64,000 nt of DNA from a virus. Both the position numbers and the translations under genes were made by a program. Below are positions 13,569 through 19,300 of the stretch, piece after piece. The notes beneath the pieces are model-generated. The model was given only the letters and a program-made list of their open reading frames with translations. It did not search any database and had not been told where the DNA came from. The DNA lies in IMG/VR virus record IMGVR_UViG_3300012932_000063. One strand, 5' to 3'. Positions within the stretch are counted from its first letter, which is position 1, and each line of letters begins with the position of its first letter.

Positions 13569-13688
13569 AAAAGTATCCGGGACATTTTCTATGTCCCCGT
13601 AGTGGCGACTATGGCACCGCCCATTATGTGTTCGCACATAATGTTGCCCCACCTGAGTGGGGAATGCTCTCATGAAGAGCAAAGGAAT
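13569..13688 (+). ncRNA. Orphan TnpB omegaRNA-like scaffold 1
   Basis: AAAAGTATC.GGG hairpin, CCCCGTAGTGGCG..ATGGC core, further hairpins, AAAGGAAT; homologous to 39912-40068. Confidence 0.75.
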
Positions 13689-13752
13689 TAACTGGACAAT
13701 CAATTGGGAATATGGTAGGATATAGCCTCAAAACAAAAATTTGAGGTGCAAA

Positions 13753-14007
13753 ATGGGAAATAAATTGAGGAAAGAAAAGAAGTCATCAACTTTAGAGGAT
13801 ATAATGACTACCCTAAATTCAGAATTAGATGACATAAGAAAAGAATTAGGTGATTCAAACAAATACTCTAATCTTGATACTTTTTCTGAGACAATAATTC
13901 GATTGCGTAATCTGGTGGAGGCGTACCAAAAAACCAACGATCTTTTTCAGGCAATGAGTCCCATAAAGCGACTTCTTCGTCGGAAGGCTCGTAAAAACCA
14001 GAACTAG
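13753..14007 (+). CDS. Hypothetical protein, + member of overlapping pair 1
   Basis: Own promoter TGGACA-17-TAGGAT and GAGGTG RBS; paralogue 14309-14623. Confidence 0.7.
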   Translation: MGNKLRKEKKSSTLEDIMTTLNSELDDIRKELGDSNKYSNLDTFSETIIRLRNLVEAYQKTNDLFQAMSPIKRLLRRKARKNQN

Positions 14008-14074
14008 GTATATACGGTGCAATATTCTTTCTTTTAAATTTGGATATTAACCAACAAATTGGACAATTTTTCAT
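13868..14074 (-). CDS. MKNCPICWL protein, - member of overlapping pair 1
   Basis: AGGAG RBS, minus promoter TTGACT-17-TAACGT; paralogue 14430-14672. Confidence 0.65.
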   Translation of the reverse strand: MKNCPICWLISKFKRKNIAPYIPSSGFYEPSDEEVALWDSLPEKDRWFFGTPPPDYAIELLSQKKYQD

Positions 14075-14149
14075 CTTGAAGTATCTCCTAAAATAATAAT
14101 GGGAGGCAAACGTTATAGCGTGATGAAAAATTAGTCAATAATTTTCAGG

Positions 14150-14241
14150 AAAAGTATCTGGGCGGATATTTTCTGCCCCGTAGCGGCGACTATGGCATAC
14201 CCCCTCGGCACTTGCGGATAATGTTCCCACGAGGAACAAAA
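14150..14241 (+). ncRNA. Orphan TnpB omegaRNA-like scaffold 2
   Basis: AAAAGTATCTGGG hairpin, CCCCGTAGCGGCG..ATGGC, AATGTTCC..GGAACAAAA as in 40012-40034. Confidence 0.7.
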
Positions 14242-14308
14242 TAATTAACTGGACAATCAATTGGGAATATGGTAGGATATAACCTCAAAACAGATTTTGA
14301 GGTGCGAC

Positions 14309-14623
14309 ATGACGAATAAATTGCGAAAAGAAAACAATATATCCCCTCTCGACTCAATCATGAATATTCTGAATTGGGAATTGAATAATATAACAAAAGA
14401 ATTAAATGACCCGAAAAAATATAAAGATATTAAGACTTTTTCAAATTTAGTAAAGCGGCTTGACGTGGTGGCGGACCACTACCGAGATGCCAACGCTCTT
14501 CTTGAGGCAATGAGTCCCATAATGCTAAAGTTTCGTCAGTTTCTCCAAGAAAGAAATCAGCAGAACAACCAAATTTCTCAGGATCAGCAGCAACAAGATC
14601 GTCAAGAAGATCAGCATAATTAA
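14309..14623 (+). CDS. Hypothetical protein, + member of overlapping pair 2
   Basis: Paralogue of 13753-14007, same promoter and RBS. Confidence 0.7.
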   Translation: MTNKLRKENNISPLDSIMNILNWELNNITKELNDPKKYKDIKTFSNLVKRLDVVADHYRDANALLEAMSPIMLKFRQFLQERNQQNNQISQDQQQQDRQEDQHN

Positions 14624-16129: not shown

Positions 16130-16558
16130 TTGTCTAACAAACAACAAAGAACATCTATCCTAACGGTTAGAAACGCAGAATTGTCTATGTTTCTGTGTTT
16201 TTTAACTATTTTAATTTTTATTATATGTGAATCAATTGGTAATTCTTTGATTTGTGCTATAATATCTATAATTAATAAAAGCTCACAAATAGTGTCCACT
16301 TGTATAATAATCCTTTTAATAGTGGAAGGGGGCGATATAATGTTAGCCAGAATGAAAGAAGTGCCTCAAAGAATGAAAGAAAGAAGAGAAAGAATCAAAG
16401 CCGAAGGCAAAGCCGAAGGCAAAGCCGAAGGCAAAGCCGAAGGCAAAGCCGAATTAATATATGAACTTGAAAAAGCTGAAAAAAATGGTGTTTCATTAAA
16501 AGAAGCATTAGAAGAATATAAACGAAAAAACGGTATAACTGATAGAAAAAAACTATGA
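16130..16558 (+). CDS. Membrane protein with EGKAE repeats; possible internal start at 16340
   Basis: (EGKA)x4; GGGGG..ATG internal start; homologous to 2188-2604. Confidence 0.65.
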   Translation: MSNKQQRTSILTVRNAELSMFLCFLTILIFIICESIGNSLICAIISIINKSSQIVSTCIIILLIVEGGDIMLARMKEVPQRMKERRERIKAEGKAEGKAEGKAEGKAELIYELEKAEKNGVSLKEALEEYKRKNGITDRKKL

Positions 16559-16815
16559 CAGAAAATGAAATTGTTCTCGATGCTATATTAAGATTCCTTA
16601 GGAACAACAACTCTTTGTTCTTTACTATAGAAGATATTGAATTGGAAATACGCAAAAACGATCCTGATTTTGAGATAGATAAAGTTGCATGTGAAATACA
16701 CAGGGATTGTGTTAATTCACACTGGCGTGATTACTCAACTTTTCATTTTGACAGATATTTAAGAATTGGATATAAGCAGTATTGTCTTTACGGAGGCGGA
16801 GGATATTTGGGATGA
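16555..16815 (+). CDS. Hypothetical protein
   Basis: ATGA overlap with the previous gene. Confidence 0.6.
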   Translation: MTENEIVLDAILRFLRNNNSLFFTIEDIELEIRKNDPDFEIDKVACEIHRDCVNSHWRDYSTFHFDRYLRIGYKQYCLYGGGGYLG

Positions 16816-16823
16816 AACTCATT

Positions 16824-16943
16824 ATGAAATTTCTAAAACGTATTATTTCTGTCTTTTTTGATATGGGTGCTTATGAATCTAAGCCTATGTCACCATTGGA
16901 ACGCGAGAAAATGAACGCTTTTTTAATGTTGTTTCCATTTTAA
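16824..16943 (+). CDS. 39-aa peptide MKFLKRIISVFFD..NAFLMLFPF
   Basis: Paralogue of 1832-1951. Confidence 0.65.
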   Translation: MKFLKRIISVFFDMGAYESKPMSPLEREKMNAFLMLFPF

Positions 16944-17417
16944 GATGGTAAATTAAGATTGATGATCCGGTTCTAACTTTGTCATAAAACAAATTGGGTT
17001 CAAAGCCTTGTTTTCGCTTGGCTTTGCCGCCAGTTTGTGATACACTACTTCATGATTAATTCTACAAAAACTTTGAGGAGAACAGCAAAAATAGCGGTTA
17101 ACACCGTCAATGCTATTTTCCACCTAAAATTGGATCTCGCACGTTTTTCTGCTCGGATTCGTGTTACCTAAATTTTTACTAAAGTTTCAATCATCATGAC
17201 TGCTTACTCCAAAAGTGAAAGTGATTCTGAGTTTACGTGGTTGTTTCTCATATATCCTAACACTTAATTAACGGAAAAGCAATCAAAAGGATTAATCATA
17301 TACAGCTACAGCATGGGTGACACCATGCTGTCTCTCGTGCTATATAATATTCGGGGGCACAAACAAAAGGAATATCCATGCTTTAGATTCCATCCTTTAT
17401 ATTTAGGAGTTTAAATA

Positions 17418-19151
17418 ATGAACAAATTATATTTTGGCGACAATTTAGAAATTATGCGGGAAATGCCATCAGATAGTGTGGACTTGATTTGCACCGATCC
17501 ACCTTTCAACAGCGGGCGCACCTATAACATTTTCCTCGGCGACTCACTCGCACAGAAAAAAGCATTTGGCGATATATGGGTATGGGACGATGCCGCTGAA
17601 GAAACCAGAATGGATATAGACAGCATAAGAAAAGGAAAATCAGATCAATATCGCGCCTTGTCTGACACCCTGAAAGGACTAGACTTCATATTAGCGGATG
17701 GCATTAATGGCCCCGCTGTAAAAGGGAACAAAGGTGCCATGCGATCTTACCTTAATTTTATGGGGCCGCGTTTGGTTGAAATGCACAGATTACTGAAAAA
17801 AACTGGTAGCATATATCTACATTGTGATCCAACAGCGAGTCATTATTTAAAAATTATTATGGATGTCATCTGGGACACTAAAAATCACAGAAAAAATGAT
17901 TATTTTAGAAATGAAATAGTTTGGCATTACTCTGCGGGCAGATCTCCAAACACCGACTTCAAGAAAAAACATGACATTATTCTTAGATATGTTAAAGGAA
18001 AAAATTTTGAATTTAATCAACCTTACATGCCTTATTTAGAAAAAGACAGATTCAGATTTACATTTACTGATGATAAAGGCAGATTATATCGTATAAATTA
18101 TGAAAAAGATAATGATGGTCAATACAAGAAGTTTTATTGGGACACGGGAACACCTGTTGACAGTGTGTGGACATATCTAAGAGGGAAAGAATTAAACCAA
18201 ATCGGGTCTACCAGTAAGGAAAGATTAGGATACCCTACACAAAAACCACGCGAACTATATGAACGCATGATAAAAGCATCAAGTAACGAAGGCGATATAA
18301 TCATGGATCCATTCGCAGGTTGCGGAACTTCTATTGATGCTGCACATACATTAAAACGCAATTGGATTGGAATAGATTTAACTATACTTGCTTTGGATCC
18401 TATGAGTAAACGCCTTAAAGACAGACATGGTCTAGTAAATTATAAGGATTATGAAACTGAGGGGTACCCTACCAATATGCAAGAGGTTAAAAAACTAGTG
18501 AAAAACGAAAAAAGATATAATGATTTTGCTAATTGGGCTGTTACAAGATTAGGTCTTAAACCTACACAAAATGTTAGAGATGGTGGTAAAGATGGTGTAG
18601 GTCAGATAGAAATTTGGGACCCCAAAATAATGAAGTCTATTTCTAAAAGAATGTTGTCCGAAGTTAAAGCCAAGAAAAAACCGACATTAAATGATGTTAG
18701 ATCTTTTTGTCATGTTATGAATAAAGAGGATGCTATTTTGGGTATATTTATCACTATAGAATCCATCAGTAAAAATATGAAACAGGAAGCACAATCTATG
18801 GGAACTTTTGAACACAATGGTGTTAATTATCCAAGGTTACAATTCTGGCAAGTGGATGATAATTATTTCAACAATACTGAGATTATTAATCAAATCATCA
18901 AATTGCCAAGAGAATGGATTAAGGATCCTATACCTAAATCTGACAGACATTTTGAAGATCAACAAGGGGTTTTTGATTGGAACGAAGAAGTTAAAGATCC
19001 TATAGATCCAAGAAATTTAAGCGTTAAAGAGATGGAAACTATGCTCGCAAATGAACAATTGTCTGAACTGCTCCAAATTGTAAAAGAAAGCAATCTGGAT
19101 GAGAAAGAAATGGATGAATTTTGGGAGAAATTGAGACAAGCCGGAGATTAA
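17418..19151 (+). CDS. Site-specific N6/N4 DNA methyltransferase fused to an Mrr-like restriction endonuclease domain
   Basis: GDNL, DPPF, YPTQKP, DPFAGCGT motifs; C-terminal DGGKDG..EVK. Confidence 0.88.
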   Translation: MNKLYFGDNLEIMREMPSDSVDLICTDPPFNSGRTYNIFLGDSLAQKKAFGDIWVWDDAAEETRMDIDSIRKGKSDQYRALSDTLKGLDFILADGINGPAVKGNKGAMRSYLNFMGPRLVEMHRLLKKTGSIYLHCDPTASHYLKIIMDVIWDTKNHRKNDYFRNEIVWHYSAGRSPNTDFKKKHDIILRYVKGKNFEFNQPYMPYLEKDRFRFTFTDDKGRLYRINYEKDNDGQYKKFYWDTGTPVDSVWTYLRGKELNQIGSTSKERLGYPTQKPRELYERMIKASSNEGDIIMDPFAGCGTSIDAAHTLKRNWIGIDLTILALDPMSKRLKDRHGLVNYKDYETEGYPTNMQEVKKLVKNEKRYNDFANWAVTRLGLKPTQNVRDGGKDGVGQIEIWDPKIMKSISKRMLSEVKAKKKPTLNDVRSFCHVMNKEDAILGIFITIESISKNMKQEAQSMGTFEHNGVNYPRLQFWQVDDNYFNNTEIINQIIKLPREWIKDPIPKSDRHFEDQQGVFDWNEEVKDPIDPRNLSVKEMETMLANEQLSELLQIVKESNLDEKEMDEFWEKLRQAGD

Positions 19152-19154
19152 TTT

Positions 19155-19300
19155 AAAAGTATCAGGGAGTTACATCCCTGTAGCGGGTGCTATGGCACAC
19201 CCCATTGTATATACTATATACAATGTTGCCCCACCTGAGTGGGGAATGCTCTCATGAAGAGCAAAGGAATCTCTATGCTTTAGCATGGAGAGGATGTCAA
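19155..19300 (+). ncRNA. Orphan omegaRNA scaffold 3 with intact IS605 right end
   Basis: Core motif plus GGAATC-TCTATGC TTTA GCATGGA-GAGGATG-TCAA. Confidence 0.8.

What the first reader, a model, noticed from the sequence alone, without database searches (positions are those of the whole stretch)
13569..19300. Cluster of stand-alone omegaRNA scaffolds under structural selection
Seen: three tnpB-less copies (13569-13688, 14150-14241, 19155-19300), plus stubs at 14749-14760 and 17361-17386, of the sequence that overlaps the tnpB2 3' end. All begin AAAGTATC.GGG (the QKYLG codons) and keep the CCC.GTAG.GG.G..ATGGC core. The first hairpin differs in sequence but pairs in all four copies (GGGACA/TGTCCC, GGGCGGA/TCTGCCC, CAGGGA/TCCCTG, GGGATGCC/GGTGTCCC), and later hairpins are kept, one with a TTCG loop. 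Inference: these are maintained trans-acting guide RNAs, not decayed debris, forming a CRISPR-array-free multi-guide TnpB system on a phage.
Basis: partly seen in the sequence, partly recalled or inferred. Interest (0 to 1): 0.9.

Follow-up and report, generated by a model that had tools for sequence, protein, structure and literature searches.

The report
Displaced TnpB guide RNA plus relics
On a phage of sponge-associated Poribacteria, one complete guide-RNA (omegaRNA) gene sits 7.7 kb downstream of a TnpB nuclease gene that has lost its own built-in guide. The other "orphan" copies are truncated or decaying leftovers at cargo-gene junctions, so this looks like a cargo-stuffed transposon and not a multi-guide array.

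Summary
The window holds three tnpB-less copies of an IS605-type omegaRNA scaffold and two stubs. All start at AAAAGTATC and all score far above chance.

The copies are not equivalent.
- Only 19155-19304 is complete. It has all six helices, the right-end hairpin and the TCAA cleavage end.
- 13569-13688 lacks the terminal hairpin.
- 14150-14241 has a broken helix 2 and has lost helices 3-4. It lies in a roughly 590-bp tandem duplication.
- The stubs are a duplication edge and a gutted copy.

The copies belong to the clade of TnpB1 (10302-11483), not TnpB2. TnpB1 has lost its overlapping omegaRNA. It is still under purifying selection (dN/dS 0.11) and keeps 106 of 110 family-invariant residues.

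Two Poribacteria chromosomes carry the same layout: an omegaRNA-less TnpB, then cargo cassettes, then one full omegaRNA at the far end. In one of them both junctions are held, and empty sites in related genomes show a single insertion unit bounded by TTAT| and TCAA|. In the other only the right junction could be checked.

In the stand-alone lineage, helix 3 is freed from coding. Its sequence has turned over but it stays perfectly paired, which indicates selection on structure.

Best reading: a cargo-expanded "split" TnpB element with a displaced, probably functional right-end guide RNA, plus internal relics. The multi-guide system is not supported. I class it as a new variant of a known kind. 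Earlier scan notes on other genomes filed orphan omegaRNAs as PATEs, and this case differs from those.

The parts
10302..11483 (+). TnpB1, an IS605-type RNA-guided nuclease gene whose overlapping omegaRNA has degenerated
   Evidence: Pfam OrfB_IS605 plus Cas12f TNB domain. It is 58% identical to TnpB2. It groups with P0121 and P0122, which also lack a cis omegaRNA. dN/dS is 0.11 against the phage homologue in L033. It keeps 106 of 110 invariant residues.
11404..11530 (+). Degenerate remnant of the cis omegaRNA in and after the TnpB1 3' end, running into a consensus promoter (TTGACA-17-TATAAT at 11502-11530)
   Evidence: Sequence. The covariance model finds no hit here. Promoter.
13487..13545 (+). 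Hairpin (ACAGACTTG/CAAGTCTGT) plus a TATATAAT box upstream of the first orphan copy. The same module lies upstream of the 17361 stub and of copies in host locus L017.
   Evidence: BLAST aligns L017 4737-4933 to window 13498-13688. The direction of any promoter activity is not determined.
13569..13688 (+). Orphan omegaRNA copy 1. Helices 1-5 are intact and helix 3 has a UUCG loop. It is cut off before the right-end hairpin.
   Evidence: Covariance model 79 bits. Fold z-score -4.6. Positions 13640-13688 are 100% identical to 19222-19270.
13693..13721 (+). Promoter-like site (TGGACA-17-TAGGAT) directly after the truncation point. It is repeated at 14250-14278.
   Evidence: sequence.
14150..14241 (+). 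Orphan omegaRNA copy 2, decaying. Helix 1 is kept, helix 2 is mispaired, helices 3-4 are deleted and the right-end hairpin is absent.
   Evidence: Covariance model 51 bits. Fold z-score -1.1, no better than shuffles. It lies in a roughly 590-bp tandem repeat unit.
14749..14760 (+). 12-nt stub that marks the end of the third, partial tandem repeat unit. It is fused to the ribosome-binding site of a broken methylase N-terminus (14770-14860).
   Evidence: Repeat family D1. The methylase fragment matches the 577-aa methylase N-terminus at 12 of 21 residues.
17296..17392 (+). Gutted copy. It keeps the upstream hairpin and TATATAAT box, a possible trace of the 5' start, and a degenerate remnant of helices 5 and 6.
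   Evidence: Sequence; alignment. The covariance model finds no hit.
17418..19151 (+). Cargo gene: N6/N4 DNA methylase fused to an Mrr-like nuclease domain. Its stop codon ends 3 nt before the complete omegaRNA.
   Evidence: Pfam. Homologues at 55-66% identity are mostly on Poribacteria chromosomes.
19155..19304 (+). Complete stand-alone omegaRNA and transposon right end. All six helices are present, including the right-end hairpin (CTCTATGC/GCATGGAG) and the GATGTCAA end.
   Evidence: Covariance model 110 bits over the full model. Fold z-score -5.7. The right-end hairpin motif is found only here and at the TnpB2 left end.
19301..19320 (+). Presumed guide segment (the flank after TCAA). It covers the ribosome-binding site and start codon of the HNH endonuclease gene (19315-19752).
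   Evidence: Position relative to TCAA, by analogy with L017 and L036 where the flank equals the empty-site sequence. It is unique in the window.
37102..40068 (+). Separate, conventional TnpB2 element: left-end hairpin at 37122-37141, tnpB2 at 38780-40003, cis omegaRNA at 39913-40068. It is included for comparison only.

Best explanation
**What it is.** The cluster is the interior and right end of a cargo-expanded, "split" IS200/IS605-type TnpB element on a Poribacteria phage.

**How it arose (inferred).** In the lineage of TnpB1, gene cassettes were inserted between the nuclease gene and its right-end guide RNA. The cassettes each carry a promoter and small genes, and one carries a methylase-nuclease gene. 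The part of the omegaRNA that used to overlap the tnpB 3' end then decayed. A separate, complete omegaRNA module stayed at the distal end, at 19155-19304.

**How it likely works (inferred, not shown).**
- The complete module is probably transcribed with, or just after, the methylase gene.
- It is probably trimmed at its AAAAGUAUC 5' end.
- It probably loads onto TnpB1, and possibly TnpB2, in trans.
- The guide is the flank after TCAA. The complex would cut related phage genomes that lack the insertion at a TTAT-flanked empty site. Repair from the carrier would then copy the whole cargo block across, which is homing.

**The other copies.** 13569, 14150 and the two stubs are internal partial copies. 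They were left at cassette junctions by recombination and tandem duplication within the omegaRNA sequence. They lack the guide-adjacent hairpin and end, so they are not guides.
For: **Shown by tool results.**
1. Only 19155-19304 matches the whole tnpB-linked omegaRNA model, with every helix paired.
2. TnpB1 has no cis omegaRNA. It is still under purifying selection: dN/dS is 0.11 against its phage homologue and 0.08 against host P0122. It retains 106 of 110 family-invariant residues, including the conserved acidic residues and the zinc-finger cysteines. Two of the four lost residues lie in the C-terminal tail that the RNA core used to dictate; the host relatives P0122 and P0135 lose only tail residues.
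3. The orphan copies belong to the TnpB1 clade.
4. Host locus L036 has the same layout. An omegaRNA-less TnpB (P0122, sister of TnpB1) is followed by 1.3 kb of cargo and then a full omegaRNA at 12507-12656. Seven related genomes have the empty site. This defines one 4,104-bp unit bounded by TTAT| on the left and TCAA| on the right.
5. Host locus L017 lost the cis omegaRNA independently. It carries three 3'-truncated omegaRNA pieces, each followed by a promoter and small genes, and one full omegaRNA. The TCAA end of that full copy abuts GATTGC. In 11 relatives examined the same site reads TTAT|GATT.. (GATTGC in most).
6. Helix 3 in stand-alone copies is a perfect hairpin with unrelated inner-stem sequence. 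The 19155, 13569 and L036 copies differ at four pair positions and all stay paired. Each folds better than at least 99% of shuffles. The tnpB-linked form of helix 3 is held by the coding sequence for ..G-I-R-L-E...
7. Decay in the other copies.
Against: - No transcript data could be obtained (no sequencing run was listed).
- No phage relative lacking the insertion was found, so the left boundary and the TAM of the window's unit are unknown.
- No canonical left-end hairpin lies near TnpB1. L036 also lacks one, so present-day mobility by TnpA is doubtful.
- The related phage contig L033 has the TnpB1 homologue but no omegaRNA within the 3 kb that remain downstream.
- The 19155 copy is a mosaic. 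Its 5' half is slightly nearer to another lineage, and 49 nt are identical to the 13569 copy. Its compatibility with TnpB1 is therefore assumed, not shown.
- The 13569 copy keeps five intact helices, including a tidy UUCG-capped helix 3. That is more order than a plain relic needs.
Confidence: 0.6

Rival explanations
1. All tnpB-less copies, including 19155-19304, are non-functional debris. They would be right-end fragments of IS copies broken up by phage mosaic recombination. TnpB1 would be either guide-less and domesticated for another role, or served only by TnpB2's omegaRNA.
For: Decay is visible in 14150 and both stubs. Host genomes hold random internal-deletion derivatives (L039, L041). 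Phage relative L033 carries a plainly dead duplicated tnpB 3' fragment with stop codons. There are no expression data.
Against: The 19155 copy has all 31 modelled pairs formed or compensated. Helix 3 turned over while staying paired. The same far-downstream full copy sits at a precise TTAT/TCAA insertion boundary in two host elements that lost the cis omegaRNA independently. All orphan copies share the same 5' boundary, whereas the host deletion derivatives have scattered junctions.
Confidence: 0.22
2. One reading: every copy is a maintained trans-acting guide. Together they would form a CRISPR-array-free multi-guide TnpB system, with the truncated copies using the TCAA at 13700 and 14257 and the shared 20-mer after it as their guide.
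For: Helices 1-5 are intact in the 13569 copy. A TCAA lies 12 nt after the truncation point in both truncated copies and is followed by the same 20-mer. Stand-alone omegaRNAs acting in trans are documented for OMEGA systems (PMC10691335, citing Altae-Tran 2021).
Against: The right-end hairpin, which is invariant in all 22 linked scaffolds, is missing. It is replaced by the -35 region of a promoter. The two truncated copies are tandem duplicates, so the shared TCAA and 20-mer count as one event. Copy 14150 has lost helices 2-4. The L017 truncations stop at three different points, after helix 2 or helix 3, with no TCAA logic. The 20-mer has no other match in the window.
Confidence: 0.06
3. The partial copies have a function other than guiding. 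They could be cassette-boundary elements, such as portable homology or recombination sites for cargo capture. They could be TnpB-binding decoys or regulators in the 5' leaders of the cassette genes. Or they could be terminators for the minus-strand cassette genes.
For: Partial copies always keep the same 5' start, and in both the window and L017 a promoter follows immediately. The cassette genes in L017 are unrelated to each other while their borders are shared. The reverse complement of helix 1 plus GATACTTTT passes a terminator scan at 13597-13579 and 19180-19163, downstream of minus-strand ORFs. A 49-nt identical tract between two copies shows that recombination occurs inside the scaffold.
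Against: The T-run starts 6 nt after the stem, so a terminator would be weak. Copy 14150 is decaying. Only two loci show the pattern, and 176 Poribacteria genomes hold just one scaffold with this helix-3 type. Nothing distinguishes selection from recent duplication.
Confidence: 0.12

Closest known systems
IS200/IS605-family (IS1341-type) TnpB elements with a right-end omegaRNA (e.g. ISDra2, IS608-like ends)
   Same: The nuclease domains match. The omegaRNA scaffold ends in the right-end hairpin and a TCAA cleavage site. The guide equals the flanking DNA. The TAM/target site TTAT lies at the left junction. Host elements insert exactly at TTAT|.
   Different: In the canonical element the omegaRNA overlaps the tnpB 3' end and there is no cargo. 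Here tnpB has lost that overlap. The only complete omegaRNA lies 1.3-7.7 kb downstream, beyond cargo cassettes, with truncated scaffold copies between. No canonical left-end hairpin lies next to TnpB1 or in L036.
Stand-alone omegaRNAs acting in trans with OMEGA effectors (Altae-Tran et al. 2021, as summarised in PMC10691335) and omegaRNA-encoding PATEs
   Same: A complete scaffold and guide without an adjacent effector gene, in a genome that also encodes compatible TnpB proteins.
   Different: PATEs and mobilised stand-alone omegaRNAs are short units with both transposon ends. No left end accompanies any copy here. The complete copy is the distal end of a multi-kb unit that still contains its nuclease gene. 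Earlier scan follow-ups on other genomes (e1-5180124, e1-5226177) were PATE or mini-IS cases, and this one is not.
Cargo-carrying IS605/IS607 relatives and omegaRNA arrays of Sigma-TnpB (PMC10691335)
   Same: That paper reports rare cargo genes inside TnpB transposons. It also reports duplication of whole omegaRNAs into arrays in one inactivated clade.
   Different: Here the repeated units are truncated scaffolds without guides, not a guide array. The nuclease keeps its conserved residues. The cargo lies specifically between tnpB and the omegaRNA.
TldR (TnpB-like nuclease-dead repressors; PMC10705468)
   Same: A TnpB homologue detached from a mobile context and relying on a separately placed guide RNA.
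   Different: TnpB1 keeps the family-invariant acidic and zinc-finger residues and its full length. The guide lies at a transposon-type end, not next to a regulated operon.

Membership tests
IS200/IS605 TnpB omegaRNA (right-end guide RNA) | Sequence and structure homology to scaffolds that overlap tnpB 3' ends | tested here: met
   A covariance model from 22 linked scaffolds scores 110, 79 and 51 bits for 19156, 13570 and 14151.
IS200/IS605 TnpB omegaRNA (right-end guide RNA) | All scaffold helices kept, with compensatory changes | tested here: met
   Met for 19155-19304, with all six helices. Partly met for 13569, with five of six. Not met for 14150, where helix 2 is broken and helices 3-4 are deleted.
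IS200/IS605 TnpB omegaRNA (right-end guide RNA) | Scaffold ends in the right-end hairpin and cleavage motif (TCAA), directly followed by the guide | tested here: met
   Met only for 19155-19304. Tested and not met for 13569, 14150 and both stubs.
IS200/IS605 TnpB omegaRNA (right-end guide RNA) | Compatible TnpB with conserved catalytic and zinc-finger residues in the same genome | tested here: met
   TnpB1 keeps 106 of 110 and TnpB2 keeps 109 of 110 invariant residues. Pfam domains.
IS200/IS605 TnpB omegaRNA (right-end guide RNA) | Unit inserted 3' of the TAM, with the guide equal to the empty-site sequence | tested here: inconclusive
   Shown for the homologous host units L036 and L017. For the window, no relative with an empty site was found.
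IS200/IS605 TnpB omegaRNA (right-end guide RNA) | Expressed, processed and bound by TnpB; directs DNA cleavage | not testable with these tools
   No sequencing run was listed.
PATE / miniature non-autonomous IS200/IS605 element | Short ORF-less unit flanked by both the left-end and right-end hairpins | tested here: not met
   The left-end hairpin motif occurs only at 37122 (TnpB2 element). None lies near any orphan copy.
Multi-guide omegaRNA array (as in Sigma-TnpB) / CRISPR-like array | Several complete scaffold-plus-guide units with different guides | tested here: not met
   There is one complete tnpB-less unit. The two truncated copies share one downstream 20-mer through tandem duplication.
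TldR (nuclease-dead TnpB repressor) | Loss of RuvC catalytic residues or C-terminal truncation | tested here: not met
   TnpB1 is full length and keeps the invariant D/E/C residues. Only tail residues dictated by the RNA overlap have changed.

The most novel reading that the evidence does not exclude
The omegaRNA 5' segment may serve as a cassette-junction site. Breaks made by TnpB at the right end, or simple homology between scaffold copies, would let TnpB transposons capture promoter-gene cassettes one after another between nuclease and guide. Each event would leave a truncated scaffold as a scar. This would be an integron-like way for an RNA-guided homing element to gather phage and host accessory genes and then drive the whole block into rival genomes.
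Probability: 0.15. Interest if true: 0.8.

Novelty: new variant of a known kind. Interest (0 to 1): 0.5.

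Why it matters
TnpB elements are usually described as minimal, cargo-free units in which the guide RNA is welded to the 3' end of the nuclease gene.

These loci show that the weld can be broken, at least twice independently. The nuclease gene then sheds the RNA-imposed codons. The guide survives as a separate gene at the distal end, under its own structural selection. Kilobases of cargo can ride between the two.

On a phage, an RNA-guided homing nuclease could then push a methylase-nuclease gene and other accessory cassettes into co-infecting relatives.

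The layout is also a natural intermediate on the path from transposon-bound TnpB to effectors with unlinked guide genes. It offers a freed helix-3 region and a defined 5' boundary as natural hints for trimming the scaffold.

Tried and rejected
- **Rfam:** only tRNAs in the window.
- **INPHARED phages:** no relative of 13-20 kb apart from a methylase hit.
- **IMG/VR scans:** TnpB2, TnpB1, HNH and a scaffold DNA pattern gave one distant TnpB contig and chance coding hits only.
- **JGI metagenome scan with HNH:** only distant HNH genes and no empty site.
- **Methylase homologues:** the two contigs fetched (of four at 59-66% identity) were host chromosomal, with no omegaRNA downstream.
- **Sequencing-run look-ups:** two tries, none listed.
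- **No whole genome** is held for the window.
- **Left junction of the L017 unit:** searched in its MAG and not found, because the contigs end 2 kb upstream of tnpB.
- **Helix-3 pattern (CATT..AATG type)** in 176 Poribacteria genomes: only L036 itself.
- **Rejected: the orphan copies derive from tnpB2.** Their 3' halves match TnpB2's scaffold at only 64-70%, against 80-89% for TnpB1-clade scaffolds.
- **Rejected: PATE.** No left ends are present.
- **Rejected: the TCAA 12 nt after the truncation is a working end.** It lies in a promoter spacer, comes from a single duplicated event, and is absent after TnpB1 and after the L017 truncations.
- **Weak: terminator role for the reverse complement of helix 1.** The T-run is 6 nt from the stem.
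- **Cargo ORFs:** Pfam and PHROGs found nothing.

Full report
**Setting**

The window is phage-like. It encodes an NAD-dependent ligase, a helicase, a primase, a portal protein and methylases (PHROGs), seven tRNAs and many small unknown ORFs.

It carries two IS605-type TnpB genes: TnpB1 at 10302-11483 and TnpB2 at 38780-40003 (Pfam). They are 58% identical. Homologues of both at 55-92% identity are abundant in Candidatus Poribacteria genomes, so the host is very probably a poribacterium.

**The canonical element**

Host copies show the standard layout:
- TTAT| at the left junction.
- A left-end hairpin, CTCCATGCTTTAGCTTGGAG.
- tnpB.
- A roughly 153-nt omegaRNA that starts at AAAAGTATC inside the codons for Q-K-Y-L.
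- A right-end hairpin followed by ..TCAA|.

An alignment of 22 tnpB-linked scaffolds gives six helices and 31 pairs. Nineteen of the pairs show compensatory changes. I built covariance model R1 from these sequences only.

**Checking the observation**

| Copy | R1 score or state | Condition |
|---|---|---|
| 19156-19299 | 110 bits, whole model | All helices paired, right-end hairpin present, ends GATGTCAA |
| 13570-13688 | 79 bits | Helices 1-5 intact; stops at ..AAAGGAAT; a promoter-like TGGACA-17-TAGGAT follows |
| 14151-14241 | 51 bits | Helix 2 mispaired, helices 3-4 deleted; folds no better than shuffles |
| 14749 stub | not a model hit | Right edge of the partial third unit of a roughly 590-bp tandem duplication; fused to a broken methylase N-terminus |
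| 17361 stub | not a model hit | Degenerate remnant of helices 5 and 6, behind the same hairpin-plus-TATATAAT module that precedes 13569 |

So the cluster holds one complete copy, one truncated copy, one decaying copy and two scraps.

**Which nuclease they belong to**

BLAST and half-by-half identities place all three copies with the TnpB1 clade and with other stand-alone copies, at 80-89%. Their 3' halves match TnpB2's scaffold at only 64-70%.

TnpB1 has no omegaRNA of its own. Its 3' end is a degenerate version that runs into a consensus promoter.

On a protein tree, TnpB1, its phage homologue P0121 (contig L033) and host protein P0122 form a supported clade (100/97), and all three have lost the overlap. 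P0135 (locus L017) lost it independently, because it sits among linked relatives.

These proteins are not decaying:
- dN/dS is 0.11 for TnpB1 against L033 (dS 0.58) and 0.08 against P0122. Linked pairs give 0.12-0.13.
- TnpB1 keeps 106 of 110 residues that are at least 97% invariant among 209 linked relatives.
- Two of TnpB1's four differences, and all of those in P0122 and P0135, fall in the P-V..M tail. Its codons were the RNA core CCCGUAG..AUGGC.

The nuclease is therefore maintained and must obtain its guide from elsewhere if it is still RNA-guided.

**Two host loci explain the architecture**

*L036, a 6.05-Mb Poribacteria chromosome.* TnpB P0122 at 10001-11182 has no cis omegaRNA. It is followed by a promoter, 1.3 kb of cargo, and a full stand-alone omegaRNA at 12507-12656 (139 bits) that ends GGTTCAA|. 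Seven related genomes carry the uninterrupted site..TTTCAT|CAGCGGTATCC... In L036 the left junction reads ..TCTTAT|TCTCCC... The nuclease, the cargo on both sides and the distal omegaRNA are therefore one 4,104-bp insertion bounded by TTAT| and TCAA|.

*L017 and L038.* TnpB P0135 has no cis omegaRNA. It is followed by three truncated scaffold pieces that stop after helix 2, helix 3 and helix 2. Each is followed at once by a promoter and unrelated small genes. Then comes one full omegaRNA (151 bits) whose TCAA abuts GATTGC. In 11 relatives examined the same place, in the hflK promoter, reads GGCGTTAT|GATT.. (GATTGC in most).

The full stand-alone copy is thus the genuine right end and guide of a transposed unit. 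The truncated copies are internal.

The window repeats this pattern on a larger scale: TnpB1, a three-gene operon, the truncated copies with their cassettes, further cargo, the methylase-Mrr gene, and the complete copy.

**Is there structural selection after separation?**

They can simply be inherited.

Helix 3 is informative. In linked copies it is part of the coding sequence for ..G-I-R-L-E.. and has a conserved loop. In stand-alone copies it no longer codes. Its inner stem is unrelated in sequence among 19155, 13569, L036 and L017 copy 4. Each is still a perfect 7-9-bp hairpin that beats at least 99% of shuffles.

The 19155, 13569 and L036 copies share the outer CATT/AATG pairs and differ at four inner pair positions, all compensated. 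The 49-nt block shared by 13569 and 19155 also carries two compensated pairs each in helices 4 and 5 relative to the nearest linked scaffolds. This supports selection on RNA structure in the stand-alone state.

All orphan copies, in six different upstream contexts, begin at the same AAAAGTATC. Ordinary host deletion derivatives have scattered junctions (L039 inside helix 1; L041 keeps helix 6 only). The shared start fits a functional 5' end, for example the TnpB processing site described in PMC10278001. I did not test this.

**Mechanism**

- *Shown:* the anatomy, the clade assignment, the selection on TnpB1, and the insertion boundaries of the two host units.
- *Inferred:* 19155-19304 is expressed downstream of the methylase gene and used by TnpB1. 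Its guide (19301-19320, the HNH ribosome-binding site and start codon; unique in the window) would direct cutting of TTAT-flanked empty sites in related phages. Repair would then copy the cargo block across. Self-cutting would be avoided because the resident copy has ..GTCAA, not TTAT, before the target.
- *Origin of the partial copies:* the 100% identical 49-nt tract inside otherwise 79% identical copies, the tandem duplication, the CGCCC microhomology at the L017 junctions and a duplicated tnpB 3' fragment in phage L033 all point to recombination within the scaffold as the way cassettes are stacked. The exact pathway is unresolved.

**What is known already**

Stand-alone omegaRNAs that act in trans are described, as are rare cargo in IS605/IS607 relatives and omegaRNA arrays in one inactivated TnpB clade (PMC10691335). 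PATEs carrying omegaRNAs are also known, and earlier follow-ups in this scan filed two other genomes that way.

This case is not a PATE, because no left end is present. It is not a guide array. It is not a TldR.

What appears new is the split layout: a selected nuclease without its overlapping RNA, cargo in between, a distal guide under its own structural selection, and truncated scaffolds at cassette borders. The loss of the overlapping RNA arose at least twice, and the layout is present on a phage. It is rare. Only three of 236 sampled homologue clusters, plus the window, lack the tail. Only one of 176 Poribacteria genomes holds this helix-3 type.

**Limits**

- There is no expression or binding evidence.
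- The left boundary and the empty site of the window's unit are unknown.
- There is no canonical left end, so current mobility is uncertain.
- The 19155 copy is a mosaic.
- The order seen in the truncated 13569 copy is not fully explained.

Noticed in passing
L017:800-1822 (also L038:714-1736): A 340-aa RRXRR/PLMP-type protein (IsrB-like; Pfam PF14239, E 3e-32) lies just upstream of the omegaRNA-less TnpB. A left-end-like hairpin sits at 571-590. Two different OMEGA nucleases therefore sit side by side in one island.
   Followed up: partly
L066-L072 versus L036:8549-8552: All seven empty sites read ..CAT| (TTTCAT, TTCCAT or TCTCAT) where the occupied site reads TTAT|. The unoccupied alleles would lack the TAM and so escape TnpB cutting.
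   Followed up: no
window 14770-14860: A 28-codon N-terminal fragment of an N6/N4 methylase, 57% identical over 21 residues to the start of the 577-aa methylase at 17418. It is fused behind the 14749 stub and broken by other DNA. A minus-strand ORF (14890-15060) follows.
   Followed up: partly
window 13753-14007 / 13868-14074 and 14309-14623 / 14430-14672: Each tandem unit holds a plus-strand and a minus-strand ORF that overlap convergently. Each ORF has its own ribosome-binding site. L017 has the same kind of overlap at 3749-3922 / 3753-3938. No family match in Pfam or PHROGs.
   Followed up: partly
window 985-1057: This stretch matches, at 80-90%, a conserved non-coding block found about 200 nt upstream of tnpB in several host loci that lack a nearby left end (L013, L016, L021).
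   Followed up: no
L017:4974-5110: The first roughly 135 nt after the right end belong to a short repeat found on other contigs of many Poribacteria genomes (80-90% identity). It looks like a MITE/REP-like element with GCGTAAGTCC ends. L036 has a similar motif near 12290.
   Followed up: no
L003:11290-12600: In one host copy an IS630-like (DDE_3) transposase insertion splits the omegaRNA between helix 5 and the right-end hairpin.
   Followed up: no
L033:9437-9950: The related phage contig carries, after the TnpB1 homologue, a promoter and a 79-aa gene. Then comes a duplicated 214-nt tnpB 3' fragment with in-frame stops (92% to window 11297-11509), again followed by a promoter and a small gene.
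   Followed up: partly
window 17418-19151: The methylase-Mrr fusion has hundreds of homologues at 55-60% identity in Poribacteria, often several per chromosome. This suggests it is itself a frequently moved gene.
   Followed up: no
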